Virus record (IMG/VR): IMGVR_UViG_3300033489_000136
Span: 1 to 42,188 of that record
From: a virus
Length of the DNA: 42,188 nucleotides
Reading direction: 5' to 3' (one strand)
The notes beneath the pieces are model-generated. The model was not told where the DNA came from. It did not search any database and was given only the letters and a program-made list of their open reading frames with translations. This document shows positions 1 through 42,188 of this stretch, piece after piece (within the stretch, counting starts at the first letter, position 1; each line of letters starts with the position of its first letter). The position numbers were made by a program, and so were the translations under genes.

Positions 1-127
1 GGAACAAGAATTGGACCTTTTGTAGCATCAGTCGAGAATGGCTATGTTCGAGGAGCAGATGCTCTGTTCCGAGCAGGAGTAGAACTGGTAGTATCTCCTA
101 TTAAGGGCAGCTTCTGGCTTGCGGGTG
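1..127. repeat. Terminal direct repeat (left copy); overlap of a circular contig
   Basis: nt 1-127 match nt 42062-42188 base for base on reading. The reading frame is continuous through it. Confidence 0.9.
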
Positions 128-3100
128 CAGGCTACCAGATACCTAAGACTATCACTCAAATGAGCAGAAACTTTGCTCGTCAGGCAAGTATGAACTTTAA
201 GTCTGTGCTGGATAGAGCGTTTCCACAGGTGAAGAATTTGGTGGGCTTAACTGCTAAGGATATTAGAGACACCGCCTCCGCCTGCATAGACGCTGCTATT
301 GCTAGACCAACTGAAGGTGGAGACTTAATGGTTCGGGCAGGTAGCAATATGCTAGAGTTCGATGCTCTGGATACATTAGCTGCAAAGAAGCTACTTAAGG
401 GCATAGCAGATGACTTTGAGTTTGATGTTCCTTCCTTAGCAAGGTTGAATGATGAAGTGCTGAATATGTTCTCGGGGCAGCCTGCTAAGATGACTGCTGG
501 AAAGATTCTTGGCAACCTAGCTATTAACCAGACTGATGAAGTGGTAGAAAAGGTTGTGAAGCAACTTGCTACTTTTAAGGACGATGTTGTAGCTAAGGCG
601 AAGGCTATGTTCAGTTCTGATAAATCTGCTGACCAACTTATCGGCATGTTTGAGAAACTGTCTGAAACTAGATATGCTAACCTTGCCTCTCCGATAGCCA
701 CTCATCTGAACCAAGCAGGAATGTCAGTATCGTGGGTCAGCCGAGTGGCAGATAAGGTATTGCAGTCAACTGGGTTGGTGACTCTGGAGAGAAAAGCCAT
801 TATGCCATTTGCTCGCTGGAACTTACTGTTTATGAACTTTGGACCTATGAACTTCTTTGAGAATATGCAACGAAGTTTCCTTGGTGGTGGAGAGCTAATG
901 TACCCTAAGGCTTATGGAGGATTAGCTGAAACCAACAGGCTATTCAGAGGTCTGACCAATGCTCCTTATGAGTTGCAGATGGCAGAACGTGGAGCGCAGA
1001 GGTTGGAGATGGCTCTGGTTGACCCTAAGACTGGGGTTACTAATGCCTTCCGAGGAGGCAAGATTCCCTTTGTAACTAAGGAAGTTAACATCAGAGGTCA
1101 TGTCATTGGTAAGAAGATTAACATCCGAGGTAAGGACTTTAAGCTAACTGATTTCCAGTCCTACAACGATATGTGGGAGGAGATGACTACTCTACAAAGA
1201 GCCTATGACTACCAAGTACATTATATGAAGGCTCTGCCAGAGACTGCCTCAGAAGAGATGCGGATGATTGTAGAGGCAGTTGACAGCAGGATTAACTCCT
1301 TGAAGGGTATGAAGGGGTTAAGCAACTCCGATATTCAGGACATCCGCAGAACTGCAATATCTACATCTACTGTAGGACCTGATGAGTTTCGTCATATGGC
1401 TGACCTGGACGTACTGGAATTGCAGAAGCGTATGATTTCAAAGGAACTTGGCAAGACCTTTGACAAGTGTACCGAAGTAGCTAGCTTCTCCAAAAAGGGC
1501 ATCAGGGACGATGTACTTGATGGTAGCATCTTTAAGGATATAAAAGTTAGGATTGATGCTAGAAAGCAGGAAGCTAGAGAGATGTCATTGGCCTCTCTAG
1601 CTAACCAGATTGATGCGCTGAAGTCCGAAGCCGACAACATGATTAAGGCTTACACGAATACTGGAACACTGCTGGATGAACTTAGTCAGGATATAGCTTT
1701 GGGGACTCCTACACGTAGAGGAGTACCTGCTATGAAGTATAACGAATATCCTATTACTCTAAGTGGTAATGATGTTGGCAGTATTATGATGTATGAATCT
1801 ACAGTTAATCCTGGAGAGTTCATAGTGGATAAAATAAGTATAACTAAAGCTGGTACTCTTAACAGGCGAACATTGCAAGATATTGAACTCTTGATTCATA
1901 ATACTGCTAGGAGTAAGGGTGCTACTACAGTCACTGTTATGCCTAAGCCTAACCATAAGGCTCTGTATGAACTAGGTGGATATAGCAAGACTGCTGTAGG
2001 CTACTCTAAAGCAACCAAGAGTCCTCTATCCAGAGCACCAAAAAGTATTGATGAACTCCTCACAGATATGGATAACATCTCTGCGATGCAGAATGCCATT
2101 GATGAGAGGATTCATGACTACCGCAGATTAGTAGAACTCCGCTCTGCCAAACTGACTCCTGGTAAGGAAGTGGACGACTTCCACGTAGGCTCTAACAAAC
2201 TGATGTCCGAGTTTATGGACTCGGCTAGAGCAGATATGAACCGCATTATAGACCAGACGAATGACTTCCTATCTAGCAGACCTGTAATATATGGACCTAA
2301 GGGGGAGAAGCTACCTACTCTGCAAATTACTGATGCTCAGACTTCTGCTGCAAAGGCTATCAATGAAATCTACAGGCAGGAGACTGCCAATGTCCTGAAT
2401 ACAAGAAATAGACTGGCAGCAGTTGAGGCAAGAATTCCTAAGACTCCTCCAGCTAAAAGAAATGCCCGCTTCTGGCAGCAGCAACGGGCAGAGAAGGCTA
2501 GTATCTGGGATGAGCATGAACTTGCTGCAAGGAGACTGCATAATCTTCAGATGGACTCTAGCCGCCAGTTCCTTAGCTCTGTGGGCAAGACTCCGTTTGT
2601 CCCTGCTCAGATACCAGCAGTAACAGGCAAGCTGACTCCGAGCCATATTGCCCATCTATTTGGAGTAACAGGAGATGACACTTACAGAGGGCTAACAAGA
2701 ATTCATACTCAAGTAACTGTCAGACCAAAGGAAGAGTGGGTTGACTACGTGAAGAATCAAGCTAATGCCTATGCGCAGAAGTTTCAGAAAACTGCCATAG
2801 ATATAGGCTTTACTGACGAGGCAATAGGAGATGTCTATGACCAACTGTGGCGGAATCTTGGGATTGAGCCAAGTATATTAACTCCTGACTCTCCTACTAT
2901 GCTCCAGTTTGATGAGATAGAGGCAGAGCTAACTCGTCTTCATGCAGCAGTTAAGATGGATGAGACTGACATAGCTAAGTGGAGGCAGTTTAATCAGGGT
3001 ATGGCAGATGACTTAGAGAAGATGCCAATGTACCAGAAGGCTGCGCCTGCTATGGTAGCAGATACTCCAGAATCTATAGCAGAGCGTCTTGGCTCTAAGT

Positions 3101-6000
3101 ACAACGGTATGCAAGAAATGCCTGCTCCTGAGGCTCCTATGATGATGTTCACTGATGATGTTACTGGCTCTACATATCTTGCCAGAAACTTTGATGAAGC
3201 CCTAGAAGCTCTTACTGATATGAGAAGGAACTTTGGGGCTGCTGCTCCAGAAGTTAAGCCTCTAGCTGTTCCTGCACGAGGAGGTTCTGATGATTGGTGG
3301 GCTAAGAAAGAACTCGCCATGACTGAAGCTCGCAAGCAGCATGAACTTGCCTACCCGACCTACGATGATGCTAATATAATAGATGAGTCCATGCGAGCTA
3401 TCTTCCCGTTCTGGACATACGAGCAGTTCCGATGGAGATGGCTACCTCGAACATTCATGCGAACTCCAGGCACACTTACTAATCTTGGAAGATTTATGGA
3501 CTACTGCGTTCCTATATCCTACAGAGCCTTAACTAGAAATGGATGGAAGTACTATGATGAGCTAACTGTAGGTGAGGATGTTATGGTAGTTAATCCTGTA
3601 ACTTTAGAGTCTTACTGGAGTCCTCTAAAGGCTGTTAATGTTTTTCCTGCTAGTGATAGGAATATGGTTAGTATTCCTAAACATGGAGGTGGTATATTAT
3701 GTACTCAAGAGCACAGTTGGTTAGTTAGGAGCAAACTTGGAGATTTATCCATACGTAAGGCTAAAGATATAACTGAGCAATACTATGGTATTCCTACCGT
3801 AACAGACTTTGCATTTCCTTCTGGTAGCATCCTATCTCCTAAGGATGCGGCTACTCTAGGGTGGCTAGTAACTGACGGTAGTTATAAGCAAGGAATTATT
3901 TATCAGAAAAAAGCTGAATTTGTGTTTAATATTGAAGTAGAGTTAGGTATCACACCTACTCACTCTAATAGCAATGGGGTACTTAGCTTCTACGTACCTA
4001 AAGCAAAGTTAAGAGAGTTACTATCCATATGCCCTGATAAGACGAATCTTCCTAGCATTGTAAGTAAGCTAGATAAAGATTCGTCAGAAGCAATGTGGAA
4101 CGCTATGATGAGCGCAGAAGGAAACTCAAATGGAGCATTAGAGTTTAGGTCATTTGCTCAGAAGCCAGGACCTGTTCTTGATGCCTTCACTATGCTAAGT
4201 ATTATGTTAGGTTATAAGATATCTATTGAACATACTGACGGAACTAAAGTATGTTCAATAGTCCATATCTGGAAATATAAGAACGATAAACCTTGGAGAA
4301 GAGTTTCTACTAAGAAATATACTGATGCAGTCTGGTGTCCTACTGTAGAGACTGGTGTGTGGATTATGGATGCAGGCGGGCAAATTCTTCCTACAGGAAA
4401 CACTGATGGAGGCTATATCAATGTACCTGGTACTGACCTCCAAATCAACCCTCTCAGAGGCAGCATCTGGATGGGCGGTATGCGCCGATTCTTCCTTAAA
4501 GACTTTCCTGAGTATTATGATAAGTTTCCTGGTGCAGAGCTTATAGACTACATTGGTCGGGCAGGCTTCTATCCTGGCATACATATCACAGGTCTCCAGA
4601 CTCTCTTTGGCGCAGCTACTGGTAAGCCTGAACTCAACGAGCTAGTTCCTACCTGGATGCAGACAGGTTTATCTGCACTCCGAGCCTTATCTCCAGAACA
4701 TATGGGCAAGGTAATAGACTACATCTTCCCTGACCGCTTCCGTGACTACCAGACAATGCTAACACTCGGTGAGTGGGGCTATGATGCAGACGAAATCTGG
4801 AATAAGAAGTATCAGGGGCAGAAGCTTACTCCTGAGGAGGAGAGCCTGTGGCTAAGGGCAGAAGCCCAAGCAAATGGATTGAAAGGTATTCTCATGGAGC
4901 AGACTGGTATGTTCAGAATCCGTCCGCAAGAATACGATGATATGCAGAAGGAGATGAAACTCGCTATTCAGGATGCTACTGGTGTATCCGTAGCAACCCA
5001 GAATCGCATTGACCGCCTGTATCCTATCACTGGTAAGAGATTCTCTGACTACTATAAACTTGATGTCCTGCAAACTAAACTTCTGTATGAGTCTGAATCC
5101 TACCGCCGTTGGCAGGGAGTTACGACTCCTCTCTATCCTTCCTCTTGGCAAGCACTGGAAGTTAAGATTAAGGAGTACTGGGATACTCTGGAGAAGAACT
5201 CCACTGATGCCAGACGTAACGGAGTCTATGATGCTGAAGGGGAGTTGAAATATCCTTCTATTGTTGAAATCAACCGACAGTTTGTAACAGGCGAGATAGG
5301 TCCTGACCAATGGAAATCCTTACGGGAGAATATCATGTCAGGACTGGCGGAAGCTGCCGATGCACTGGCAAAGTCTCCTGCCTACGCTGATGTACCTAAG
5401 ACTCTAGAGGAGCGTGAGGCATGGCTAAGGGAGAAAGGTATCCTGACTCCTACCTACGGCGCAGACCAAGAACTGCTTTGGTATTACTACCAGCTTGAGC
5501 CTGAGTTAGCATACAACTGGGACTCTGACCGTATGGAACTGGATTGGGATACCTACTATGCAAAGGTTGATATGCTTATGGAGAGTCTAACTGAGCCTTA
5601 TCGCCAGCGTCTCCTTGATAGGATTCAGCTTGACTGGACTCCGATGGAAAGACTCTACTGGACTGCAAGTAGAAATTACTTTCGCCCTTACCGCAATATC
5701 CGTACAATAGTTCTAAATCAATATACTGATGAAGAGCGTGGGCAGATTCGCAGGTATGAAGTAGCCAGAGGCGAAGAGCGTGAGGCTTTGCAGGATATAA
5801 TCGGCTCTGATGGTCAGAAGCTCATAGCAGGCTTCAATGCAAGAGTTCGTGAGGCTCGGCAGAAGCTCCGCTACATTGACTCTGACCTTGATGCTTGGTC
5901 TTACTTCTTTGGCAATACTGATAGCTTCATAACTGCTATAGCGGAAGAGAAGTATAATGAACTTGTTAAGCAATATATGAATGAAAGTATGGTACAGTAA
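1..6000 (+). CDS. Giant virion-associated multidomain protein, C-terminal 1,999 codons (continuation of 40841..42188 across the circular junction); intein-containing
   Basis: Frame 1 is open from nt 1, with no stop before the listed Met at 160. It is the same frame as the ORF leaving the window at 42188 once the 127-bp overlap is removed. Stop TAA at 5998-6000. The gene lies between portal and scaffold. Confidence 0.8.
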   Translation, partial: GTRIGPFVASVENGYVRGADALFRAGVELVVSPIKGSFWLAGAGYQIPKTITQMSRNFARQASMNFKSVLDRAFPQVKNLVGLTAKDIRDTASACIDAAIARPTEGGDLMVRAGSNMLEFDALDTLAAKKLLKGIADDFEFDVPSLARLNDEVLNMFSGQPAKMTAGKILGNLAINQTDEVVEKVVKQLATFKDDVVAKAKAMFSSDKSADQLIGMFEKLSETRYANLASPIATHLNQAGMSVSWVSRVADKVLQSTGLVTLERKAIMPFARWNLLFMNFGPMNFFENMQRSFLGGGELMYPKAYGGLAETNRLFRGLTNAPYELQMAERGAQRLEMALVDPKTGVTNAFRGGKIPFVTKEVNIRGHVIGKKINIRGKDFKLTDFQSYNDMWEEMTTLQRAYDYQVHYMKALPETASEEMRMIVEAVDSRINSLKGMKGLSNSDIQDIRRTAISTSTVGPDEFRHMADLDVLELQKRMISKELGKTFDKCTEVASFSKKGIRDDVLDGSIFKDIKVRIDARKQEAREMSLASLANQIDALKSEADNMIKAYTNTGTLLDELSQDIALGTPTRRGVPAMKYNEYPITLSGNDVGSIMMYESTVNPGEFIVDKISITKAGTLNRRTLQDIELLIHNTARSKGATTVTVMPKPNHKALYELGGYSKTAVGYSKATKSPLSRAPKSIDELLTDMDNISAMQNAIDERIHDYRRLVELRSAKLTPGKEVDDFHVGSNKLMSEFMDSARADMNRIIDQTNDFLSSRPVIYGPKGEKLPTLQITDAQTSAAKAINEIYRQETANVLNTRNRLAAVEARIPKTPPAKRNARFWQQQRAEKASIWDEHELAARRLHNLQMDSSRQFLSSVGKTPFVPAQIPAVTGKLTPSHIAHLFGVTGDDTYRGLTRIHTQVTVRPKEEWVDYVKNQANAYAQKFQKTAIDIGFTDEAIGDVYDQLWRNLGIEPSILTPDSPTMLQFDEIEAELTRLHAAVKMDETDIAKWRQFNQGMADDLEKMPMYQKAAPAMVADTPESIAERLGSKYNGMQEMPAPEAPMMMFTDDVTGSTYLARNFDEALEALTDMRRNFGAAAPEVKPLAVPARGGSDDWWAKKELAMTEARKQHELAYPTYDDANIIDESMRAIFPFWTYEQFRWRWLPRTFMRTPGTLTNLGRFMDYCVPISYRALTRNGWKYYDELTVGEDVMVVNPVTLESYWSPLKAVNVFPASDRNMVSIPKHGGGILCTQEHSWLVRSKLGDLSIRKAKDITEQYYGIPTVTDFAFPSGSILSPKDAATLGWLVTDGSYKQGIIYQKKAEFVFNIEVELGITPTHSNSNGVLSFYVPKAKLRELLSICPDKTNLPSIVSKLDKDSSEAMWNAMMSAEGNSNGALEFRSFAQKPGPVLDAFTMLSIMLGYKISIEHTDGTKVCSIVHIWKYKNDKPWRRVSTKKYTDAVWCPTVETGVWIMDAGGQILPTGNTDGGYINVPGTDLQINPLRGSIWMGGMRRFFLKDFPEYYDKFPGAELIDYIGRAGFYPGIHITGLQTLFGAATGKPELNELVPTWMQTGLSALRALSPEHMGKVIDYIFPDRFRDYQTMLTLGEWGYDADEIWNKKYQGQKLTPEEESLWLRAEAQANGLKGILMEQTGMFRIRPQEYDDMQKEMKLAIQDATGVSVATQNRIDRLYPITGKRFSDYYKLDVLQTKLLYESESYRRWQGVTTPLYPSSWQALEVKIKEYWDTLEKNSTDARRNGVYDAEGELKYPSIVEINRQFVTGEIGPDQWKSLRENIMSGLAEAADALAKSPAYADVPKTLEEREAWLREKGILTPTYGADQELLWYYYQLEPELAYNWDSDRMELDWDTYYAKVDMLMESLTEPYRQRLLDRIQLDWTPMERLYWTASRNYFRPYRNIRTIVLNQYTDEERGQIRRYEVARGEEREALQDIIGSDGQKLIAGFNARVREARQKLRYIDSDLDAWSYFFGNTDSFITAIAEEKYNELVKQYMNESMVQ
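3505..4401 (+). mobile_element. Intein (299 aa) with LAGLIDADG-type homing endonuclease domain, inserted in the giant protein
   Basis: Starts with Cys (..FMDY/CVPISYRALT). Block B TxxH is present (ILCTQEHSW). LAGLIDADG-like motifs are LGWLVTDGSY and WNAMMSAEGN. Block F-like VWCPTVETGVWIMDAGG. Ends ..ILPTGN followed by +1 Thr (TDGGY). The segment is visibly more AT-rich than the flanking extein. Confidence 0.8.
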
Positions 6001-9486: not shown

Positions 9487-9858
9487 ATGAAAGGTGCATG
9501 GAAAACTGCATTAGTAGATATTGACCGAGCAGTGGAGTTCAGTGGAGATGATGTAGACCGATTCTCCAAGCTCGTTGACTTGGGAAAGGGATTCAAGGAT
9601 GTGCTGGTATTGATTCCAGCACTGAACGCCTCAGCAGTTGTATCCGTCTATGTTCAGAAAGGTTCAGGAGTTGATGAGGTTCCTGTAGCACTTGCAATTC
9701 TGGATGATGATGCTACTGGTCACTTTGCTCATGCCACTACCTCTGGTGCAGGCAGCATTGCAATTATCTTCCATATCGGAGGTGCAGAGTTTATCCGTAT
9801 CTACTGCGGTGCAGACCAGGTGGCAGACCGTTCCTTCAGCGTTATGGGTTCTGATTAA
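9487..9858 (+). CDS. Virion structural protein (head-tail connector region)
   Basis: 123 aa ORF, RBS TAGGAGG, tightly packed in the late operon. Confidence 0.5.
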   Translation: MKGAWKTALVDIDRAVEFSGDDVDRFSKLVDLGKGFKDVLVLIPALNASAVVSVYVQKGSGVDEVPVALAILDDDATGHFAHATTSGAGSIAIIFHIGGAEFIRIYCGADQVADRSFSVMGSD

Positions 9859-9868
9859 GGAGACTTTT

Positions 9869-10117
9869 ATGGGCTGGAATGAGTTGGTGCTAGTACCTCG
9901 TATTGATGCTATTTTCAGAAAACAGAAGAAGCGGTACAAGGTTCAGTGGGTAGCATCTACATATCCGCAGATACGAATCCAGTATGAGGAATCTATTCCA
10001 CTTGCTGCTGCTCAGGAGATAATATCTTTGTTTCCTGATTCAGTATATGTTGAGTTGATTCCTCATATTCAGTTTGCCGAAGATGCAAAGAATCTTCCAG
10101 TGGAGTTCAGGAAGTAA
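9869..10117 (+). CDS. Virion-module protein
   Basis: ATG 9869 after TAAGGAG. It is in frame with track ORF 9692..10117, whose upstream part overlaps the previous gene. Confidence 0.5.
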   Translation: MGWNELVLVPRIDAIFRKQKKRYKVQWVASTYPQIRIQYEESIPLAAAQEIISLFPDSVYVELIPHIQFAEDAKNLPVEFRK

Positions 10118-10119
10118 AT

Positions 10120-10332
10120 ATGACTGCCAGAAGCGATATAATAACTGTTGTGCGAGAAGGGCAGATGATAGCTACTGGACTTGCCGATGGTAGTATTATT
10201 AAGAGGACAGTAGCAGGTGAAGATATGATTTCATCTCTAGCCTTTAATGATGGAACTGTATGGAAGAAAGTCGAAGCTATTTACTTTGACCCTATTACTA
10301 ATATCTTGAAGGTAGTTTATCATGCTGATTAA
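10120..10332 (+). CDS. Virion-module protein
   Basis: 70 aa ORF abutting its neighbours. Confidence 0.45.
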   Translation: MTARSDIITVVREGQMIATGLADGSIIKRTVAGEDMISSLAFNDGTVWKKVEAIYFDPITNILKVVYHAD

Positions 10333-11341
10333 GTTTAATCCAACAGGTACTCAAATAGTTAAAGGCAGACTTGTGGTTAGGCTTGACTTCTATCCTAGTG
10401 TTAATGATAAAGCCTATAGGTATCATTACGTCTCTGTACCTGTTATTCCACCAGAAGGATACTTAGGTAAGGTTGATAACAGGGGCAATCCGCTTGACGA
10501 TAATACTTTCAATGCGTGGTTAGAATCTCTGCCTCATGTATGGAGACTAAACCCTTGTCTTTGTCATTTTATAAATGTTGATGAGGGTATAAAACTTCAG
10601 AAGTTGAGAGACTTTATAACACAGACATTTGATAAGAACATCTTAGCTAATATAAGTGATGCCGTTATACTTTCTAATTCTGCTCATCTTTTGCATTTTA
10701 TGAAAGCTAAGTCTGTTCAGTCAAGTAGAAAGATAATAACTAAAGATATTGTTGACTTACTTGGTTCGGTAAATAATGAACTTAAAAGTACGAATATTGT
10801 CCTTGACAGTAATGGAGAGTCTAATGTTCTGGAACCTCTATCTATAGATATAGGATTACCAGCCATTGATAGAGCTAGTGTTCTTTCTCCAAACTACACG
10901 GATATTCAGAATGACAATCCTGCATATGCCACTGGCTATTTAGACACTATTGAGGTGTGGTTTTATGCAGATGCAACTGCTGTTAAAGCGGGAACATTCT
11001 ATGGAAGTGGAGTAACGTGGACGAATAGAGACTATCATCTTCTCGGTAGTGTTGTAGGGGGCTCAAAGCAAACCTTCTCATCTCTAAGTATTGAAGTAAC
11101 TCTAGGGGACTTAATAGGAGAATATCGTGAAACAGGGGGCATTGAAACAGCAGGAGCAGGTGGAGGCTTTGGAGGAACTATAGAGAAGGCTGGAGACCAG
11201 TTCGGTGCGGGTGTTCAGACCTATACTTTATATACTGGATACGGTGCTAGTATATATGGGACTGGCTCAGAAATTTCAGCAGGTTATTTTCCTGTTATTG
11301 GAGGTAGTCATATAATATATACTGTTGGGGGTGATGAGTGA
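10322..11341 (+). CDS. Tail/structural protein with Gly-rich C-terminus
   Basis: 339 aa with an 11-nt overlap on the upstream gene. C-terminal part GGIETAGAGGGFGGT...GYGASIYGTGSE. Confidence 0.5.
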   Translation: MLIKFNPTGTQIVKGRLVVRLDFYPSVNDKAYRYHYVSVPVIPPEGYLGKVDNRGNPLDDNTFNAWLESLPHVWRLNPCLCHFINVDEGIKLQKLRDFITQTFDKNILANISDAVILSNSAHLLHFMKAKSVQSSRKIITKDIVDLLGSVNNELKSTNIVLDSNGESNVLEPLSIDIGLPAIDRASVLSPNYTDIQNDNPAYATGYLDTIEVWFYADATAVKAGTFYGSGVTWTNRDYHLLGSVVGGSKQTFSSLSIEVTLGDLIGEYRETGGIETAGAGGGFGGTIEKAGDQFGAGVQTYTLYTGYGASIYGTGSEISAGYFPVIGGSHIIYTVGGDE

Positions 11342-26100: not shown

Positions 26101-26862
26101 TTAAGCTACCTTGTGATAAATACCACTCTTGTCCTTGCTGAACTGCTTACTTGCTACCATTGATGTAGCAAAGTTCTTGGGTGAACTCGCAGGTAGTCCG
26201 ATGGAGGTGAACAGGGTAGTGTCGGACTTGATAATCTCCGACTCCATCGCAGTAGCGTTGAACTGTGGTAGTGTCTTGCCATCTAGCAGTTCCATAGCTG
26301 CATCGAGAGGAGATACTCCCTTTCCTCCTGCACTGCCAAAGCCTTCAACCGAGAAACATTCCCATGTTGAAGTAGGTACATCTTGACCTTTTGGATGTGT
26401 CTCGTCCTTCGCTCTCCCATCCCACAACTCGTGCATAGGCGGGCGACCTTCTTCTCCGTCTGCCATAACCATACCCACTCTTTTACCGATACAGTCAGAC
26501 AGGTCAGGTCGGTCAGAAGGCTTAATGTATTCAGGACTTGTAGGGTCTTTCTGAGCATCGGTGAGAGACTGGTCGAGAATACTGGCGAGGCTAACTCCAA
26601 ACACACCGTATCTGGATTTCTTGCGGTTTGATATAGTCAGGGTGATAGTGTATATGGGGAAGTTGTAAGGCTCCACTGACTCAACGACTTCCAGGTCCTT
26701 GAAGTTGAGACTTAGGGATACAGATGTTCGTTCGGTTGCAGTACCCTCGTCATACTTCTTAGTCTCCTGTGGACATGAGTCAAGGACTCCGTAGAACCTG
26801 CGTAAAGGACCGATGTCGCTGTCTATTAAACCTCTAATGCTTGGAATTTTTTCGTCTGTCAT
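26101..26862 (-). CDS. Hypothetical protein; possible ssDNA-binding partner of the Sak4/Cas4-like module (by position only)
   Basis: ATG 26862 follows GGAGGAAAGAAAC. The track start at 26880 is 6 codons upstream. Confidence 0.5.
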   Translation of the reverse strand: MTDEKIPSIRGLIDSDIGPLRRFYGVLDSCPQETKKYDEGTATERTSVSLSLNFKDLEVVESVEPYNFPIYTITLTISNRKKSRYGVFGVSLASILDQSLTDAQKDPTSPEYIKPSDRPDLSDCIGKRVGMVMADGEEGRPPMHELWDGRAKDETHPKGQDVPTSTWECFSVEGFGSAGGKGVSPLDAAMELLDGKTLPQFNATAMESEIIKSDTTLFTSIGLPASSPKNFATSMVASKQFSKDKSGIYHKVA

Positions 26863-26953
26863 GTTTCTTTCCTCCGTCATTTATTATTATCATTACTACT
26901 ATTGGAACTACTACTAAGGAGATGATGCCGACTGTAACTACTACATTCTCAAT
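26834..26953 (-). CDS. Candidate 39-aa membrane peptide with non-canonical ATT start
   Basis: AAGGAGG, 5 nt, then ATT GAG AAT... encodes (M)ENVVVTVGIISLVVVPIVVMIIINDGGKKHDRRKNSKH. No ATG/GTG/TTG lies between the upstream in-frame TGA and the hydrophobic segment. Confidence 0.25.
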   Translation of the reverse strand: MENVVVTVGIISLVVVPIVVMIIINDGGKKHDRRKNSKH

Positions 26954-26993
26954 TACGACCTCCTTCGGTTTGAATTTCTTAGCTCACTATTAT

Positions 26994-27023
26994 ATTATAT
27001 CATACAGATAGCTAAGTTGTCAA
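26994..27023 (-). promoter_or_regulatory. sigma70-type promoter (minus strand)
   Basis: Minus strand reads TTGACA (27023-27018), 18 nt, TGaTATAAT (hexamer 26999-26994). Confidence 0.6.
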
Positions 27024-27203
27024 TAGCGGAGTATCAGCAGTTTCAGCTAACTCCCCAAGTGTCATGTTCATCATGTATACGGAAGGCTTAGCAGTGGACG
27101 CAAGAACCTTATCAAGCTGACTTAGCATCCTACGACACTCCTTATGACTTCGGTTGCAGTTCCGCAGATGTCTCTCTGCATCCTTCTGATATTCACTTTT
27201 CAT
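27012..27203 (-). CDS. Small hypothetical protein
   Basis: ATG 27203 preceded by GGAGG. The track start at 27215 is a GTG inside that RBS. Confidence 0.5.
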   Translation of the reverse strand: MKSEYQKDAERHLRNCNRSHKECRRMLSQLDKVLASTAKPSVYMMNMTLGELAETADTPLLTT

Positions 27204-27254
27204 TTTTGCCTCCACTTACTTGGTATATTTTGAAATCCGATATATTGTTAATAA

Positions 27255-27758
27255 TTACATTATTTCATTTATATCTTGTGTATCATTGTACTGTATTATC
27301 TTTCTCTCTTTAGCATTGTCTAGGGTTATGAATCTAGCAATATAAGGAAGGTCCTTAGTGCCTTCATAAGCCCATGTGAGGTCACTGTAGAATATGATTA
27401 TCTTGCAGGTAGGAGTCATATACTTATTCCATCTAGAATAGTAATGCTTAGATATTTTATACTCTCCAGCAGTGAGAGTACATCCTAGAACATCTGCAAT
27501 ATATTCGCAGTTAGATGGCGTTGAGATAAGAAGGTCAAAGGGTAAGTAGTCAGCATATCCATTTACATCTTCTACTTTATTGCCGTTGCATCTAAGAATA
27601 GCAGACACTTTAGCTTCTATCATCTTATGGGATAGTAGGCGTTTAATGAAGTCTACGGTATCATCATAATTAGGCTCAATGCCTGGATACTTGTCTGCAT
27701 ACTTCTCATTATCAAGTCTACTTCGTATGCGCTCCATTCTGCTTTCAGTGCTTTCCAT
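27255..27758 (-). CDS. Hypothetical protein in an AT-rich island; weak PD-(D/E)XK-like pattern
   Basis: 167 aa, RBS CAGGAG. LPFDLLIS ... GEYKISK could be a D...ExK motif. The gene is visibly more AT-rich than its neighbours. Confidence 0.5.
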   Translation of the reverse strand: MESTESRMERIRSRLDNEKYADKYPGIEPNYDDTVDFIKRLLSHKMIEAKVSAILRCNGNKVEDVNGYADYLPFDLLISTPSNCEYIADVLGCTLTAGEYKISKHYYSRWNKYMTPTCKIIIFYSDLTWAYEGTKDLPYIARFITLDNAKERKIIQYNDTQDINEIM

Positions 27759-27828
27759 ATCTGCTCCTGTGAGTGAATAATAATAATAATGTATTGATTA
27801 TCAATATAGGCGATTTCATTTTATACAT

Positions 27829-28800
27829 TTACTCCAAGTGATTCAGCAATTCAGAACCTCGAAGTTCAACTTCATCTTCAGGAATAGTAGGCACACGGCG
27901 AGTCAGGATTTGTGGATGAAGAGTAGACCTGTCCCATCGGAGCTTGATATAGTCAGGAAGGATGGTCTCTGCATTACGAGGGTGCTTAGTGAACTCCATG
28001 TCAACGGTAGTTTTAGTTTTGTCCGCAGTATTTAAGTTCATCTGAATGACTGTATCAAACCACCAGGAGAGTTCCTTGACACCAAAGGATTCATCAGAGC
28101 CATGACGGACTTCATTACCATCAGCATCAGTACCAGCCTTACGAGGATGATGGATAACTACCAGAGCCAGTTGACGCTGATAACCAGTATGTCTGTCCTT
28201 TTCATTGTAGTCGTATAGCATAAGGTCAAAGTTCTCAAGTAAGATATTTACATCATTAGCTTTAGTAAGGTCATGGTGAAACATCTTGTATAGTGGGTCA
28301 ATAATGATTAGGACAGGAAGGGAAGGGTAGTTAGTTATCATACTATCTATGTTGTTGCGAAGAGAGGATATGCCCGCCTGCTCATCAAGGTGGAGGATGT
28401 CTATGTAGCGTAAGACAACATTAGGAGGATAGGCTAGAGAGTCGGCTCTTTGAGCTTCTGCTGGCGCATCACCAGGCTTAGCAAGGTAGATTGCTTTCGT
28501 TCCTTCACAATACTTTTCAACTCTGTTCTTAGCAGCAACCCTACCACCTTCAGCTAGGAGATAGATAACATTACAGGGAGAGGTCTTGAAGCCTAGCCAC
28601 CTGCGACCAGTAGATGCTGCGTAGGCAAGATGGAGGGCAGAGGCTGACTTCCAACTTCCTTCGTTGCCAAAGATTTCAACCTTCCCGCCTACGTTTAGAA
28701 TACCATCCCAGATGATACGCTGAGTAGGAGGAGGCTTCCATTCTGCCCAGTCTTGAACTGTAAAAAGGTCCTTGTCTTCACGGTGGATGTCAGATGGCAA
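27829..28800 (-). CDS. RepA/AAA_25-type RecA-superfamily ATPase (putative replicative helicase)
   Basis: Walker A is FGNEGSWKSASAL and Walker B-like is LPVLIIIDPLYK. Overall it resembles RepA/DnaB C-terminal domain proteins. TTG start follows AAGGAG. Confidence 0.6.
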   Translation of the reverse strand: MPSDIHREDKDLFTVQDWAEWKPPPTQRIIWDGILNVGGKVEIFGNEGSWKSASALHLAYAASTGRRWLGFKTSPCNVIYLLAEGGRVAAKNRVEKYCEGTKAIYLAKPGDAPAEAQRADSLAYPPNVVLRYIDILHLDEQAGISSLRNNIDSMITNYPSLPVLIIIDPLYKMFHHDLTKANDVNILLENFDLMLYDYNEKDRHTGYQRQLALVVIHHPRKAGTDADGNEVRHGSDESFGVKELSWWFDTVIQMNLNTADKTKTTVDMEFTKHPRNAETILPDYIKLRWDRSTLHPQILTRRVPTIPEDEVELRGSELLNHLE

Positions 28801-30299: not shown

Positions 30300-30617
30300 T
30301 TATTGTGCGTTCTTTTCTCCTTTATATAGTTGATGTATATACTCTAGCTTTTCAGCATCTGACTGCTCATCAAGGAAGTCCTTATAATCTTCAATTATGC
30401 TCCATGTAGTAGGAGTGCGACAGGTTAAGCACCATAACCAACCTCCTCTAGCCCAGACGCAGGATATTGCACCACAATGAGGACAAGGCTGGTAGTTACG
30501 ATGCCAGTCAAGATGCCCTGACTCAATTCGTGCAGTCATTTCCTCCTCATCTGGCTCATCTTCACATAAACCGAAGATTAGATTGCCTTTTTCAGTATAG
30601 TGTTTGTTAGTAGCCAC
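30300..30617 (-). CDS. Zinc-ribbon protein
   Basis: 105 aa with CPHC ... CLTC. The GTG start overlaps the upstream stop (TAGTG). Confidence 0.45.
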   Translation of the reverse strand: MATNKHYTEKGNLIFGLCEDEPDEEEMTARIESGHLDWHRNYQPCPHCGAISCVWARGGWLWCLTCRTPTTWSIIEDYKDFLDEQSDAEKLEYIHQLYKGEKNAQ

Positions 30618-30901
30618 TAATCTTGCTCCTTATTTATGTTATCCTTCGTGTGATGTGACTTATGGCAGATACGATGGACGAGTACACGGTTCTCCAACTT
30701 CATATTCATGTGGTCTCCATCTATGTGATGCTCGGTAAGGTTATCAGTACCACGAGGAGGCAGAGCATCATCATAGATAAACGGCTCTTTGCACATATAG
30801 CAGTTAGGCTGATACTTTTCTATCATTGCCCAGAGGAAGTACTTCAGCCTTGCTTTCTCATTGGAGAGATTAGTCCTCCGATGAATTACCTTTTTGGTCA
30901 C
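30617..30901 (-). CDS. HNH endonuclease
   Basis: LTEHHIDGDHMNMKLENRVLVHRICHKSHH is a classical H-N-H layout, with an upstream Cys pair (NCYMCKE). GTG start follows GGAGG. Confidence 0.75.
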   Translation of the reverse strand: MTKKVIHRRTNLSNEKARLKYFLWAMIEKYQPNCYMCKEPFIYDDALPPRGTDNLTEHHIDGDHMNMKLENRVLVHRICHKSHHTKDNINKEQD

Positions 30902-30919
30902 TGTTCAGCCTCCATATTC

Positions 30920-30948
30920 ATTATACCATCTACTGTTGCGAATGTCAA
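30920..30948 (-). promoter_or_regulatory. sigma70-type promoter (minus strand)
   Basis: TTGACA (30948-30943), 17 nt, TGgTATAAT (hexamer 30925-30920). The spacer begins TTCGCAACA. Confidence 0.7.
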
Positions 30949-30959
30949 TAGCCAGTAAG

Positions 30960-31175
30960 CTAGGACTGAGACATACTGTCTAGATTAGTACGGAGAGCAA
31001 GTTTATCGTCATGCTTCTGTTGTTGTCTGATAATACTAATGCACTTATCCACTTGAGCAATCTTGTGAGTCAGACGCTTGTAAGGATTACTGCCCCGCAG
31101 ACGAATGAGTCGCTGATTTACCAGTTTCTTACGCTCGGCGAGCAGTTCCGCCATTGTCATCTTTGCAAAAGTCAT
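30960..31175 (-). CDS. Small hypothetical protein
   Basis: 71 aa, RBS GGGAGGTGG. Confidence 0.45.
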   Translation of the reverse strand: MTFAKMTMAELLAERKKLVNQRLIRLRGSNPYKRLTHKIAQVDKCISIIRQQQKHDDKLALRTNLDSMSQS

Positions 31176-31228
31176 TTACCACCTCCCGAAATTGAGCCTT
31201 CATAAAATCAGGTTACAGTTGCAATAAG

Positions 31229-31363
31229 CTAGTTAAGGAACAGTTGGGCAACTAATTCCAAAGGACGCTGGTTCTCATAATAGTCCCAGTCGAGTCCTTC
31301 CACTCCGTTCAACACTATATAGCTTGCAAGAATAAGATTCTGCAAGTTATCTATATCTTCCAT
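31229..31363 (-). CDS. Small hypothetical protein (44 aa)
   Basis: ATG 31363 after GAGGAGG. Sequence MEDIDNLQNLILASYIVLNGVEGLDWDYYENQRPLELVAQLFLN. Below the ORF-track size cutoff. Confidence 0.4.
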   Translation of the reverse strand: MEDIDNLQNLILASYIVLNGVEGLDWDYYENQRPLELVAQLFLN

Positions 31364-31440
31364 TATACCTCCTCAATGTCCCACCATGCAAGGAAGAACA
31401 GTCCTATTACTGCTAGTATTGAGACAATAAACTGTAACAT
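31363..31440 (-). CDS. 25-aa membrane peptide
   Basis: MLQFIVSILAVIGLFFLAWWDIEEV. ATG 31440 after GGAGGAATAGAGT. Its stop overlaps the next ATG (TAATG). Confidence 0.4.
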   Translation of the reverse strand: MLQFIVSILAVIGLFFLAWWDIEEV

Positions 31441-31443
31441 ACT

Positions 31444-31650
31444 CTATTCCTCCATAAATGCTATGATGTCTGCCACCTGGTCATTAGTTATGCTACCATC
31501 TCTGCGTATGATGTCCTGCTCAATGGACATGAACTGCTTGTGGTCTTTGCCATGAAGCAGCCCACCACAACGGCAAGTACAGCGTGGATGTTCTGCTAAC
31601 GTGCAGGAGTCAGACTGATGCAGAGTCAAGGCTCGCTTAAACTGTTTCAT
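31444..31650 (-). CDS. Small Cys-rich protein
   Basis: 68 aa, RBS GGAGGTGAG, first gene after the promoter at 31683-31711. Contains CTLAEHPRCTCRCGGLLH. Confidence 0.5.
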   Translation of the reverse strand: MKQFKRALTLHQSDSCTLAEHPRCTCRCGGLLHGKDHKQFMSIEQDIIRRDGSITNDQVADIIAFMEE

Positions 31651-31682
31651 ATGTTCTCACCTCCATTCATTGTACTGATTAT

Positions 31683-31711
31683 ATTATACCATCTTTTGTT
31701 GCCATTGTCAA
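31683..31711 (-). promoter_or_regulatory. sigma70-type promoter (minus strand), perfect consensus hexamers
   Basis: TTGACA (31711-31706), 17 nt, TGgTATAAT (hexamer 31688-31683). The spacer begins ATGGCAACA. Confidence 0.75.
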
Positions 31712-31732
31712 CCCACCAGTAGCCAGCATTAC

Positions 31733-31864: not shown

Positions 31865-31874
31865 ATACTCCTTT

Positions 31875-31973: not shown

Positions 31974-31990
31974 ACTTATCGCTACTATCC

Positions 31991-32182: not shown

Positions 32183-32215
32183 GTTTCACCTACCTTTTAT
32201 ATTATTTTAGCTTAG

Positions 32216-40840: not shown

Positions 40841-42188
40841 ATGCCTTTAGAGGATATTGCACCAAAGGTTAAGAAGCCTACTGTTTCCTTTGGCTTAGGG
40901 CAGGAAGAGCCGAAGAAGGAAGAGACTACAACTCCGACTGATGCTACAAAGTTGCCTGAGACTGTTCAGCCTACCGAATACTTTGAAGGGTATAAATGGC
41001 AACTGGAAAGATGGTCTTTGCGTGCTGCTGACTGGAATGCTATTGTTACGAAGGCTTATAAAGACATAGAAGTTCTTACAGGTGCTATTAGGAATCCTCT
41101 GACTCTGTGGTTCAGGAGAAGCCAGTACCAGCGGAACTTAAAGCAGCGCCAGGCAGACCTTGATGCTGCTCTACAACAGCTAGCAGGCATGGAGTGGAGG
41201 CTTCAGGTTCTGCACACTTTGCCAGCATACTTTGCAAGCACTAAATTTACTATAAATAATCTAGATGATGTGATGAATCTCATTCCTAATGAGTTAGCCA
41301 GTGACATTGACATGGACTGGTTGCAGGATACTTATGACCGAATGAGCTATCTAAACAATAAACTACCAGAGGAATATGAAGGCTCGGTGTCTGAAAGCCA
41401 AGAGATGATTCTTAATGAGATATTAAAAGAGCCTAAGCTAGAGACTAAGTCTCTGCATAATCTAACGGTAGACGAGTTGGCTAAGTACTTTACTCCAATG
41501 GCTGCGGAACTGCCAGAGAGTATGACAATAGAGCAGGTACGTAGCGTCTTGTCTCGTGTTGAACTTGACTCTGAAGCGGATATAGAGCTATCTGCTTGGC
41601 TTATTGGTAGAGCTAGAGATTGGGCAGTAGAGACTGATAGGCTTAATCTTATCAAGGCAGGCATTACTGAGACTGCTGATATTGATTTGACTCCAAGCGA
41701 GTTCTTCAACGCCCTGCTTGTTCAACCTTTCATGGCAACAACTGAACTGTTGGATAAGTACTTTAGTCTAGTTGCTAGACCTTTAGCTGGCGCTGCTGTC
41801 ATAGGATTTCATAGACTATTCAACACTCCTGAAGATACAATGGCTGCCGAGATGTCCCGAAAGTATGATGCCTACCGAGAGAGTGGCGAAAACGCTTGGA
41901 ATTCCTTATCCTTAGCAGTTAGTGAGACCGAGATGCCTTGGTATACTCGGATGCTTATCGAAGGAGCCTTTGACCCAACTACATACATAGGTATAGGTAT
42001 AGCTCCTGCTCTTGCAACTAAAGCGGGAACAATGCTTACCAAGATAGGTGTAAGAGGACTAGGAACAAGAATTGGACCTTTTGTAGCATCAGTCGAGAAT
42101 GGCTATGTTCGAGGAGCAGATGCTCTGTTCCGAGCAGGAGTAGAACTGGTAGTATCTCCTATTAAGGGCAGCTTCTGGCTTGCGGGTG
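40841..42188 (+). CDS. Giant virion-associated multidomain protein, N-terminal part (runs off the window and continues at nt 128 via the circular junction)
   Basis: ATG 40841 lies 5 nt after AGGAGG. I read no stop codon in this frame through 42188. The last 127 nt duplicate nt 1-127. Confidence 0.8.
   Translation, partial: MPLEDIAPKVKKPTVSFGLGQEEPKKEETTTPTDATKLPETVQPTEYFEGYKWQLERWSLRAADWNAIVTKAYKDIEVLTGAIRNPLTLWFRRSQYQRNLKQRQADLDAALQQLAGMEWRLQVLHTLPAYFASTKFTINNLDDVMNLIPNELASDIDMDWLQDTYDRMSYLNNKLPEEYEGSVSESQEMILNEILKEPKLETKSLHNLTVDELAKYFTPMAAELPESMTIEQVRSVLSRVELDSEADIELSAWLIGRARDWAVETDRLNLIKAGITETADIDLTPSEFFNALLVQPFMATTELLDKYFSLVARPLAGAAVIGFHRLFNTPEDTMAAEMSRKYDAYRESGENAWNSLSLAVSETEMPWYTRMLIEGAFDPTTYIGIGIAPALATKAGTMLTKIGVRGLGTRIGPFVASVENGYVRGADALFRAGVELVVSPIKGSFWLAG
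42062..42188. repeat. Terminal direct repeat (right copy)
   Basis: Identical to nt 1-127. Confidence 0.9.

What the first reader, a model, noticed from the sequence alone, without database searches (positions are those of the whole stretch)
3505..4401. LAGLIDADG intein inside the giant virion protein, with a non-canonical Gly-Asn C-terminus
**Seen in sequence**
- A 299-aa insert begins with Cys directly after ..LGRFMDY.
- It has a block B TxxH (CTQEHSW), two LAGLIDADG-like motifs (LGWLVTDGSY, WNAMMSAEGN) and a block F-like strand.
- It ends ..QILPTGN followed by Thr.
- It is visibly more AT-rich than the flanking gene.

**Established knowledge**
- Inteins home into highly conserved, functionally critical sites.
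- In phages they are mostly reported in replication, terminase, portal or nucleotide-metabolism genes.
- The penultimate residue is usually His, and non-His variants exist but are uncommon.

**Inference**
- The splice junction (MDY/TDGGYINVPG) probably marks a key functional site of an otherwise uncharacterised giant protein.
- The intein may use a variant C-terminal cleavage chemistry.
Basis: partly seen in the sequence, partly recalled or inferred. Interest (0 to 1): 0.75.

Follow-up and report, generated by a model that had tools for sequence, protein, structure and literature searches.

The report
Homing intein in giant phage protein
A 299-residue self-splicing, mobile protein insert (an intein with its own DNA-cutting enzyme) interrupts the most conserved part of a 2,406-residue protein of an uncultured phage; it is real and well formed, but belongs to a large, already known kind of phage intein whose unusual Gly-Asn ending is the family norm.

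Summary
Window 3505-4401 encodes a 299-aa insert (Cys1 ... Thr-Gly-Asn, followed by Thr) in frame within a giant gene.

- **Boundaries:** 41 of 45 homologues of the host protein, including one that is 69% identical and syntenic, read straight through ..RFMDY|TDGGY.. with nothing between.
- **Fold:** an AlphaFold model (pLDDT 94) matches endonuclease-containing inteins best (TliVMA, PI-SceI, PI-PfuI, PI-PkoII).
- **Endonuclease:** both LAGLIDADG acidic residues are conserved.
- **Composition:** GC is 0.39, against 0.45-0.47 in the flanks.

The Gly-Asn ending is not an oddity. The insert belongs to a family of at least 875 representative sequences. Of 117 full-length members, all have Cys1, block-F Cys and penultimate Gly. 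The Bethlehem RDF intein matches this family end to end; it is published as splicing completely with its penultimate Gly.

The intein carries the full Trp/Cys/Thr triplet typical of class 3 inteins while keeping Cys1. The host gene also wraps around the window ends, so the protein is 2,406 aa.

The host region is an intein hot-spot, with five insertion points within about 30 residues. Host function remains unknown.

Verdict: a new member of a known kind, of moderate interest.

The parts
40841..42188 (+). 5' part of the host gene (N-extein, residues 1-449 of the 2,406-aa precursor). The last 127 nt repeat window 1-127 because the genome is circularly permuted in the window.
   Evidence: The N-terminal 460 aa of P0001 map to 40841-42188 in frame and continue at window position 1. 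The 127-nt terminal overlap is shown.
1..3504 (+). Continuation of the N-extein, ending ..TPGTLTNLGRFMDY.
   Evidence: Open frame 1 from window position 1. Identical to P0001 and to Logan contig L006.
3505..4401 (+). Intein, 299 aa, Cys1 to Asn299.
   Evidence: Translation. Exactly missing from 41 of 45 homologues. AF2 pLDDT 94.1 and Foldseek top hits to endonuclease-containing inteins. Family HMM match end to end at E 1e-104.
3505..3543 (+). Block A (CVPISYRALTRNG), including the Cys1 nucleophile.
   Evidence: C1, L9 and G13 are invariant in A1/A2. Cys1 is present in 117/117.
3685..3726 (+). Block B (GGGILCTQEHSWLV): T67 (B:7), H70 (B:10), W72 (B:12).
   Evidence: T and H are present in 117/117 and W in 103/117.
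3817..4278 (+). LAGLIDADG homing-endonuclease domain (about aa 105-258).
   Evidence: The profile matches PI-PkoII residues 275-433 and I-DmoI. Foldseek matches I-DmoI. LAGLIDADG_3 hits on relatives.
3847..3885 (+). LAGLIDADG motif 1 (AATLGWLVTDGSY), catalytic Asp124.
   Evidence: G119, W120, D124 and G125 are conserved at 97% or more. D124 is present in 116/117.
4087..4125 (+). LAGLIDADG motif 2 (EAMWNAMMSAEGN), catalytic Glu205.
   Evidence: Glu or Asp is present in 113/117, A204 in 111/117 and G206 in 108/117.
4327..4377 (+). Block F (AVWCPTVETGVWIMDAG), Cys278 at F:4.
   Evidence: W277, C278 and P279 are conserved in 115-117 of 117. Cys278 lies 21 residues before the terminal Asn, the same spacing as in class 3 inteins (PMC5222942 for the numbering of class 3 inteins).
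4381..4404 (+). Block G (QILPTGN) plus the +1 Thr codon: T297 (G:5), G298 (G:6), N299 (G:7), T+1.
   Evidence: The ending is TGN in 111/116, Gly G:6 is present in 117/117 and Asn in 117/117. The +1 residue is Thr 74, Ser 36, Cys 6.
4402..6000 (+). C-extein (TDGGYINVPGTDLQINPLRG ... MVQ, then the stop codon).
   Evidence: Translation. Aligned with intein-less homologues.

Best explanation
Window 3505-4401 is a full-length mobile intein: a HINT protein-splicing domain split by a LAGLIDADG homing endonuclease. It sits in the conserved core of a 2,406-aa protein encoded between the terminase/putative portal genes and the major head protein gene of an uncultured phage of about 42 kb.

**Proposed mechanism (inferred from residues and from published work on relatives; not shown here).**
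1. After translation, Cys1 attacks the Tyr(-1) carbonyl to give a thioester. Thr67 and His70 of block B assist.
2. Thr+1 takes over the N-extein.
3. Asn299 cyclises to release the intein.
4. An O-to-N shift leaves ..RFMDY-TDGGY.. as in intein-less homologues.

This is the class 1 route. The intein belongs to a large phage-borne family defined by Cys1, T-x-x-H-x-W in block B, W-C-P in block F and a T-G-N C-terminus. In this family the penultimate Gly is the rule, not a defect.

**At the DNA level (also inferred).** The endonuclease (Asp124, Glu205) cuts intein-free alleles around ..ATGGACTAY|ACTGATGG.. and the intein is copied in by repair. This would explain its patchy distribution and low GC.
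For: **Shown by tools**
- In-frame insert with all splicing blocks.
- 41 of 45 host homologues lack it exactly at Y|T. They include syntenic locus L005, 69% identical in the extein and 33/45 plus 37/45 nt identical in the DNA flanks.
- tblastn against 50,697 phage records hits only the insert. The hits lie inside unrelated proteins: GordTnk2 TerL, Woes portal 'contains intein', phapecoctavirus DNA pol I, Pinkcreek gp135.
- Pfam Intein_splicing (3.7e-5) and LAGLIDADG_3 (3.5e-6) hit relatives.
- A profile search of the PDB finds PI-PkoII, mini-inteins and I-DmoI.
- AF2 gives pLDDT 94.1 and pTM 0.91. Foldseek's top 16 hits are all endonuclease-containing inteins, with E down to 2e-11 and TM up to 0.68.
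- The family is large: 2,277 hits at E<=1e-3 and 875 at E<=1e-10 among 1.84 billion representatives.
- Cys1, Thr B:7, His B:10, Cys F:4, Gly G:6 and Asn G:7 are invariant in 117/117.
- The endonuclease acidic residues are conserved.
- Inteins at the same site in hosts only 30-32% identical are 51-52% identical to this one, while the closest hosts are intein-free.
- GC is in the lowest 2.9% of genome windows.
- The Bethlehem RDF intein matches the family HMM over positions 3-307 of 307 at 89 bits.

**From the literature**
- The Bethlehem RDF intein, with penultimate Gly316, splices completely, and G316H slows it. Phage class 1 inteins often replace the penultimate His by Gly, Lys or Ser (PMC5050341).
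Against: - No splicing or cleavage assay exists for this sequence.
- The window intein itself misses Pfam and NCBIfam thresholds. A single-sequence PDB search gave only E of about 0.6-1.
- It carries the complete class-3 Trp/Cys/Thr triplet in the exact class-3 register. Cys278 rather than Cys1 could therefore be the first nucleophile.
- Neither a penultimate His nor a block F:13 His is present, so the residue that assists Asn cyclisation is unidentified.
- Most family members have Arg at F:15. This intein has Asp-Ala there, although the active Bethlehem intein also lacks the Arg.
- Endonuclease activity is inferred only from conservation.
Confidence: 0.9

Rival explanations
1. The insert is an intein that splices by the class 3 route, or by a dual route. 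[quoted passage not shown] The N-extein then passes to Thr+1. Cys1 would be dispensable or serve a regulatory role, for example a redox disulfide with Cys278.
For: - The full WCT triplet is in class-3 register: H70-x-W72, Cys278 21 residues before Asn299, and Thr297 at G:5.
- Thr or Ser at +1 occurs in 110/116 members, as in class 3.
- Three WCT inteins with Ser1 or Cys1 were already noted in PMC2807308.
- The Catera gp206 intein starts with Ser by the published coordinates and is listed as class 3 in PMC3196547.
Against: - Cys1 is invariant in 117/117 family members. Class 3 inteins, by contrast, are characterised by a non-nucleophilic first residue (PMC2807308).
- The family HMM scores the class 3 Catera intein at only 13 bits, and over the N-terminal lobe alone. 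It scores the Bethlehem RDF intein, analysed among class 1 inteins, at 89 bits end to end (PMC5050341).
- Class 1 inteins with Cys at F:4 are known and are polyphyletic (PMC3196547, citing Tori and Perler 2011).
Confidence: 0.12
2. The insert is a decayed or splicing-dead intein, or a HINT-like cleavage domain. It stays in the mature protein or merely cleaves it, so the giant protein works as two fragments or with the extra domain in place.
For: - Both the penultimate His and the F:13 His are missing.
- Asp-Ala replaces the family's usual Arg-His/Gln at F:15-16.
- The sequence comes from metagenome assemblies, so phage viability is unproven.
Against: - Every catalytic position conserved in the family is intact: C1, T67, H70, C278, T297, N299 and T+1.
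- The open frame has no stops or frameshifts over 897 nt.
- The model is compact and confident.
- The insert splits a sequence block conserved at 76-98% per residue in the host family.
- The identical gene was assembled independently in another data set (L006).
- The Bethlehem intein, with the same block F/G style, is active (PMC5050341).
Confidence: 0.05
3. The 299-aa segment is an integral, lineage-specific domain of the giant protein, or a free-standing endonuclease gene or intron ORF fused by chance. It would not be a protein-splicing element.
For: The host family does contain hypervariable regions with different inserted modules in different members.
Against: - The segment is absent from 41 of 45 homologues, with residue-exact boundaries in a conserved block and not in the variable regions.
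- Homologous segments occur in terminase, portal and DNA polymerase genes.
- HINT N- and C-lobes surround the endonuclease.
- No group I or II intron signal is found in 3000-5000.
Confidence: 0.01

Closest known systems
Mycobacteriophage Bethlehem gp51 (RDF / metallophosphoesterase) intein, a class 1 phage intein with penultimate Gly (Kelley et al. 2016, PMC5050341)
   Same: - Cys1.
- T-x-x-H in block B.
- V-W-C in block F (Cys at F:4).
- The ending ..L-T-G-N followed by Ser or Thr.
- An embedded LAGLIDADG-type endonuclease.
- No Arg at F:15.
- It matches the window intein's family HMM end to end at 89 bits.
   Different: - A different host protein and insertion site.
- Val rather than Trp at B:12.
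- Low pairwise similarity to the window intein.
- The Bethlehem intein has been shown to splice; the window intein has not.
Inteins of Gordonia phage Woes portal, GordTnk2 TerL, Mycobacterium phage Pinkcreek gp135 and phapecoctavirus (nieznany) DNA polymerase I
   Same: The same family. Their HMM scores are 130-165 bits and they are 22-26% identical to the window intein. All start with Cys, have T-x-x-H-x-W, [WF]-C in block F and T-G-N plus Ser, Thr or Cys, and carry two LAGLIDADG motifs.
   Different: - The host proteins are unrelated to the giant protein.
- These inteins are 25-55 residues longer.
- Only the Woes record is annotated as containing an intein.
Class 3 inteins (MP-Be DnaB, Msm/Mch DnaB-1, MP-Catera gp206; PMC2807308, PMC5222942, PMC7664689)
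   Same: - The Trp B:12 / Cys F:4 / Thr G:5 triplet in identical register.
- Thr or Ser at +1.
- A phage association.
   Different: - Class 3 inteins are characterised by a non-nucleophilic first residue, although exceptions such as Catera gp206 start with Ser. MP-Be (His340) and Catera gp206 (..T-H-N) keep a penultimate His.
- The window intein's family has invariant Cys1 and invariant Gly G:6.
- It is only weakly similar to Catera gp206 (13 bits).
PI-SceI, PI-PfuI, PI-PkoII and Tli/Pho VMA inteins (solved structures)
   Same: The overall two-domain architecture: a HINT horseshoe with an inserted LAGLIDADG endonuclease. They are the best structural matches, with E 2e-11 to 3e-8 and TM 0.53-0.68.
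   Different: - Sequence identity is only 9-14%.
- They are larger, with extra DNA-recognition regions.
- They have the canonical His-Asn C-terminus and Asp-type block F.
- Their hosts are archaeal or eukaryotic.

Membership tests
Intein (HINT protein-splicing element) | Nucleophile (Cys, Ser or Thr) as first residue, directly after the N-extein | tested here: met
   Cys1 follows ..RFMDY. Cys is present in 117/117 family members.
Intein (HINT protein-splicing element) | Block B T-x-x-H | tested here: met
   T67 and H70 are invariant in 117/117.
Intein (HINT protein-splicing element) | C-terminal Asn followed by a Cys, Ser or Thr +1 extein residue | tested here: met
   N299 is followed by Thr. 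Asn is present in 117/117, and the +1 residue is Thr, Ser or Cys in 116/116.
Intein (HINT protein-splicing element) | Penultimate His (usual but not obligatory) | tested here: not met
   Gly298 occupies this position, as in 117/117 of the family. Published active inteins lack this His (PMC5050341; PMC4031507 cites Chen et al. 2000).
Intein (HINT protein-splicing element) | In-frame insertion that is absent, residue-exact, from homologues of the host protein | tested here: met
   41 of 45 homologues have the uninterrupted 61-63-aa spacing and the sequence ..MDY-TDGG... The syntenic locus L005 confirms it.
Intein (HINT protein-splicing element) | HINT fold | tested here: met
   The AF2 model has pLDDT 94.1. 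Foldseek hits PI-SceI-type inteins, the hedgehog autoprocessing domain and mini-inteins.
Intein (HINT protein-splicing element) | Autocatalytic excision with ligation of the exteins | not testable with these tools
   This needs a reporter assay or a junction peptide from proteomics.
LAGLIDADG homing endonuclease (two-motif, monomeric type) | Two LAGLIDADG helices, each ending in a catalytic Asp or Glu followed by Gly | tested here: met
   The motifs are ..LGWLVTD124G and ..AMMSAE205G. The acids are conserved in 116/117 and 113/117.
LAGLIDADG homing endonuclease (two-motif, monomeric type) | Endonuclease fold similar to I-DmoI or the PI-SceI domain II | tested here: met
   Foldseek matches I-DmoI at E about 1e-4 over about 170 columns. 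The profile matches PI-PkoII 275-433 and I-DmoI.
LAGLIDADG homing endonuclease (two-motif, monomeric type) | Site-specific cleavage of the intein-less allele | not testable with these tools
   Only indirect support exists: a patchy distribution, and intein identity (51-52%) exceeding extein identity (30-32%) at the same site.
Class 3 inteins | Trp B:12, Cys F:4, Thr G:5 triplet | tested here: met
   W72, C278 and T297 have the same spacing as in Msm, Mle and MP-Be class 3 inteins (PMC5222942).
Class 3 inteins | Non-nucleophilic first residue (original definition) | tested here: not met
   Cys1 is invariant across the family.
Class 3 inteins | Placement inside the monophyletic class 3 clade | tested here: inconclusive
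   No tree was built. The family HMM scores the class 3 Catera gp206 intein at 13 bits, against 89-165 bits for Cys1/TGN inteins.
Class 3 inteins | Cys F:4 as obligate first nucleophile (block-F branched intermediate) | not testable with these tools
   This needs C1A and C278A mutants and mass spectrometry.
Bacterial intein-like (BIL) domains | No +1 nucleophile, and not inserted in conserved sites of essential proteins | tested here: not met
   Thr+1 is present, and the insertion lies in a conserved block.

The most novel reading that the evidence does not exclude
The window intein represents a very abundant, mostly metagenomic phage intein family that combines an invariant Cys1 with the complete class-3 Trp/Cys/Thr triplet and an invariant penultimate Gly, with no His at G:6 or F:13. 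It could be the surviving class-1 (or dual-nucleophile) lineage from which class 3 inteins arose. It might be able to start splicing from either Cys1 or Cys278, or be gated by a Cys1-Cys278 disulfide. Its preferred home, a PF[YW]/MDY-TDGGY core motif of large uncharacterised head-module proteins, would then mark the functional centre of a widespread unknown phage protein superfamily.
Probability: 0.12. Interest if true: 0.7.

Novelty: new member of a known kind. Interest (0 to 1): 0.38.

Why it matters
**For intein biology.**
- This adds a new host protein and new insertion sites to the phage intein catalogue.
- It shows that the 'Cys1 ... W-C-P ... T-G-N' type is a large family in uncultured phages, not a handful of actinophage cases. 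At least 875 representatives score E<=1e-10.
- The family carries the class 3 triplet while keeping Cys1. It is therefore a natural test bed for how class 3 splicing evolved, and for what replaces the penultimate His in Asn cyclisation.

**For phage biology.**
- Five intein insertion points crowd into about 30 residues: ..PFW|TY|E|..RYM|DY|TDGGY...
- About three quarters of family members target the equivalent PF[YW] motif in other proteins of 900-2,400 aa.
- This flags the motif as the likely functional core of a widespread, unannotated superfamily of large proteins. In this genome and in the intein-free relative L005 the gene lies in the head-gene module, which gives experimenters a precise place to mutate.

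**Practically.** A compact 299-aa intein with a Thr+1 junction and a probably active endonuclease is a candidate tool. That is incremental.

Tried and rejected
- **Pfam and NCBIfam on the insert and on the host protein** gave no hit. The intein was recognised only through relatives and profiles.
- **The search for homologous proteins with the insert alone** returned nothing. This is a false negative of the word index, because P0001 contains the insert exactly. The exhaustive HMMER search found 2,277 relatives.
- **megablast of the gene against phage records** gave no match.
- **Host-protein identity** was not resolved.
  - PHROGs gave nothing for the giant protein.
  - PHROGs gave only a weak 'tail fiber' family hit on three smaller members of the wider superfamily.
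  - A profile search of the PDB gave nothing.
  - The AF2 model of the C-terminal 602 aa of the intein-less homologue was poor exactly around the insertion site: pLDDT below 50 for residues 15-166, mean 60.7.
  - Its Foldseek searches of the PDB and BFVD gave no hit with E<=0.001.
  - Nothing can therefore be said about where the junction lies in three dimensions.
- **Group I/II intron or other RNA explanation:** rejected, with no relevant Rfam hit in 3000-5000.
- **A second intein elsewhere in the window:** none found with the family HMM on six-frame ORFs.
- **Integral-domain explanation:** rejected on the 41/45 absence.
- **Tori and Perler 2011** (PMC3133030), which tested WCT inteins that keep an N-terminal nucleophile, is not held in the library. 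Its conclusions are cited only as reported in PMC3196547.
Cys1-Cys278 distances could not be measured.

Full report
**What is in the sequence.**
- Window 3505-4401 translates without stops to 299 aa: CVPISYRALT...QILPTGN. It lies in frame inside a long ORF, directly after ..LGRFMDY and directly before TDGGYINVPG.
  - block B, GGGILCTQEHSWLV (T67, H70);
  - two LAGLIDADG motifs, ..LGWLVTD124G.. and ..AMMSAE205G..;
  - block F, AVWC278PTVETGVWIM;
  - block G, ..PT297-G298-N299, followed by Thr.
- The insert has GC 0.388, against 0.451 and 0.470 for the two extein-coding parts. GC3 is 0.29, against 0.42-0.46. It lies in the lowest 2.9% of all 897-nt windows of the genome.
- One correction concerns the host ORF. 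The window is a circularly permuted complete genome with a 127-nt terminal overlap. The gene begins at 40841 and runs through the window end into position 1. It encodes 2,406 aa, identical to database protein P0001 and to an independently assembled Logan contig.

**It is an insertion, with residue-exact boundaries.**
- The spliced extein sequence finds 46 homologues of 1,125-2,458 aa from metagenomes.
- In 41 of the 45 that cover the region, the conserved anchors are 61-63 residues apart and the sequence reads ..ARFMDY-TDGGYVNVPGTDLQ...
- The nearest homologue, P0002, is 69% identical over the extein and lies in a syntenic locus, L005. The gene order there is terminase-like gene, 575-aa gene, giant gene, 225-aa gene, 359-aa gene. 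It has no insert. Its DNA is 33/45 and 37/45 identical to the window on the two sides of the junction.

**It is an intein with a homing endonuclease.**
- tblastn of the whole protein against 50,697 phage records hits only residues of about 1095-1443, that is, the insert. The hits lie inside unrelated proteins:
  - GordTnk2 TerL;
  - Woes portal, annotated 'contains intein';
  - DNA polymerase I of phapecoctaviruses;
  - Pinkcreek gp135.
- All these relatives begin with Cys, carry T-x-x-H-x-W and [WF]-C in block F, and end T-G-N followed by Ser, Thr or Cys.
- Three of eight aligned members reach Pfam Intein_splicing (3.7e-5) and LAGLIDADG_3 (3.5e-6).
- The profile finds PI-PkoII, several mini-inteins, a BIL domain, PI-MtuI and I-DmoI in the PDB.
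- An AlphaFold2 model built on 31 family members is confident, with pLDDT 94.1 and pTM 0.91.
- Its 16 best Foldseek matches are all endonuclease-containing inteins: TliVMA, PI-SceI, PhoVMA, PI-PfuI and PI-PkoII. E-values run from 2e-11 to 3e-8 and TM-scores reach 0.68. Next come the hedgehog autoprocessing domain, I-DmoI and mini-inteins.
- No intron-like RNA is detected, and there is no second intein in the window.

**The Gly-Asn ending is the family norm.**
- An exhaustive HMMER search of 1.84 billion representative proteins finds 2,277 relatives at E<=1e-3, 875 at E<=1e-10 and 74 at E<=1e-30. They are embedded at internal positions of proteins of many sizes.
- Full-length matches among the top 150, plus the window intein, were tallied. 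Tallies out of 116 leave out the window intein itself.

| Position | Residue | Count |
|---|---|---|
| A:1 | Cys | 117/117 |
| B:7 / B:10 | Thr / His | 117/117 |
| B:12 | Trp | 103/117 |
| F:4 | Cys | 117/117 |
| F:5 | Pro | 117/117 |
| G:5 | Thr | 112/117 |
| G:6 | Gly | 117/117 |
| G:7 | Asn | 117/117 |
| F:13 | His | 0/117 |
| +1 | Thr / Ser / Cys | 74 / 36 / 6 (of 116) |
| LAGLIDADG acid 1 | Asp | 116/117 |
| LAGLIDADG acid 2 | Glu or Asp | 113/117 |

- The conservation of both LAGLIDADG acids points to selection on endonuclease function.
- Kelley et al. (PMC5050341) report that phage class 1 inteins often replace the penultimate His by Gly, Lys or Ser. [quoted passage not shown]
- I fetched that intein: CSWTNARAVT..TANHRV..VWCLRVPNGRFFIEDGGKIHLTGN|S. 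It matches the window intein's family HMM over positions 3-307 of 307 at 89 bits.
Asn cyclisation is retained, and only the helper residue differs. That residue remains unidentified.

- W72, C278 and T297 form the Trp/Cys/Thr triplet that defines class 3 inteins, in exactly the class 3 register. The pattern is His-x-Trp, with the Cys 21 residues before the terminal Asn (PMC2807308, PMC5222942).
- Class 3 inteins start splicing from the block-F Cys and are characterised by a non-nucleophilic first residue.
- Here Cys1 is invariant. This argues that it is used, meaning class 1.
- The class 3 Catera gp206 intein scores only 13 bits against the family HMM.
- Sequence alone cannot settle this. Tori et al. 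already listed three WCT inteins with Ser1 or Cys1. Catera gp206 begins with Ser by the published coordinates, yet it is counted as class 3 (PMC2807308, PMC3196547).
- I give the class 3 or dual route about 12%.

**Mobility and the insertion site.**
- Three other host homologues carry related inteins, 35-37% identical to this one, at two other points 27-30 residues upstream:
  - P0013, at ..FPFW|C..TGN|TYE..;
  - P0029 and P0036, at ..FPFWNYE|C..TGN|CFRW...
- Among the representatives, P0047 and P0048 carry inteins 51-52% identical to this one at the very same site (..YMDY|..|SDTGY..PGTDMQ). Their exteins are only 30-32% identical to the window's protein.
- P0052 has an intein two residues upstream of that site.
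- The intein is thus more conserved than its hosts at one site, and it is absent from the closest hosts. Together with the low GC, this is the expected signature of homing.
- Sites A and B lie in the second most conserved 31-residue window of the host protein (0.874, against a mean of 0.63).
- The window's site lies between two of the top three blocks. Its local conservation is 0.80, rank 290 of 2,077.
- About 75% of the 116 family representatives sit at a ..R..PF[YW]|[TS][WYF].R[KR]N.P.Q motif, or two residues downstream of it. Their hosts are proteins of 900-2,400 aa that share other short motifs with the giant protein.
- The region is therefore a hot-spot, and plausibly the functional core of a broad superfamily.

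**Host protein.**
- The gene follows a terminase large subunit (phrog_2) and a 576-aa ORF. It precedes a 221-aa ORF and the major head protein (phrog_212).
- Homologues carry different extra modules in variable regions. Precomputed Pfam hits are D12 methylase in P0042 and GNAT in P0039. One homologue has a UniRef name that begins 'Large polyvalent protei'.
- This fits a head-packaged, multi-domain protein, but packaging is inferred and not shown.
- The conserved core has no match in Pfam, PHROGs, the PDB or BFVD. Its AF2 model is unreliable around the junction.

**Verdict.** The feature is real and correctly identified. It is a new allele and site of a known kind of element. Its 'non-canonical' ending is typical of its family and known to be compatible with efficient splicing. 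The moderately interesting points are three: the class-3 triplet combined with an invariant Cys1, the size of the family in uncultured phages, and the intein hot-spot that marks an unknown protein superfamily.

Noticed in passing
window 1-127 and 42062-42188; gene 40841..42188 + 1..6000: The window is a circularly permuted complete phage genome of about 42,061 bp with a 127-nt terminal overlap. The giant gene is split across the window ends, so the true product is 2,406 aa, not 1,946 aa.
   Followed up: yes
host-protein homologues P0001-P0046 (variable regions upstream of the conserved C-terminal ~600 aa): Different homologues carry different inserted modules. Precomputed Pfam hits are PF02086 D12 methylase in P0042 and PF00583 GNAT in P0039. 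HExxH and ParB-like motifs are visible by eye in others. This gives a 'polyvalent protein' look. The conserved core has no Pfam, PHROG, PDB or BFVD match.
   Followed up: partly
representative proteins P0047-P0196 (flanks of the intein); window aa motif ..MRAIFPFW|TYEQFRWRW..RFMDY|TDGGY (nt ~3400-4440): About 75% of 116 intein-family representatives sit in a ..R..PF[YW]|[TS][WYF].R[KR]N.P.Q motif, or 2 aa downstream of it, in phage proteins of 900-2,400 aa that appear distantly related to the giant protein. At least five insertion points fall within about 30 residues. This is an intein hot-spot marking an uncharacterised superfamily.
   Followed up: partly
window ~9821-11200 and ~26681-28150: These are two further low-GC islands, as low as the intein. 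The ORFs there (for example 10322-11341 and 27255-27758) have no Pfam or PHROG hit. They may be other horizontally acquired genes.
   Followed up: partly
window ~30617-32981: This stretch of about 2.4 kb has no ORF of 100 aa or more on either strand. No tRNA genes occur anywhere in the window. It was not examined further.
   Followed up: no
intein aa 289-290 (nt 4369-4374): Most family members have Arg at block F:15 (90/117), followed by His, Gln or Arg. The window intein has Asp-Ala. Its same-site relatives P0047 and P0048, and the experimentally active Bethlehem RDF intein (Glu-Asp), also lack the Arg. The residue that helps Asn cyclisation in this family is unidentified.
   Followed up: partly
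tool behaviour: The word-indexed protein search with the insert alone returned no hit, although a database protein (P0001) contains the insert exactly. The exhaustive HMMER search found 2,277 relatives. Negative results from the indexed search should not be trusted for this kind of query.
   Followed up: yes
L001 (Mycobacterium phage Pinkcreek gp135, 81527-83905) and L003 (Escherichia phage nieznany DNA polymerase I): Both records contain a family intein that is not annotated as such. It is 341 aa in a hypothetical protein next to baseplate and minor tail genes, and 324 aa in DNA polymerase I.
   Followed up: partly
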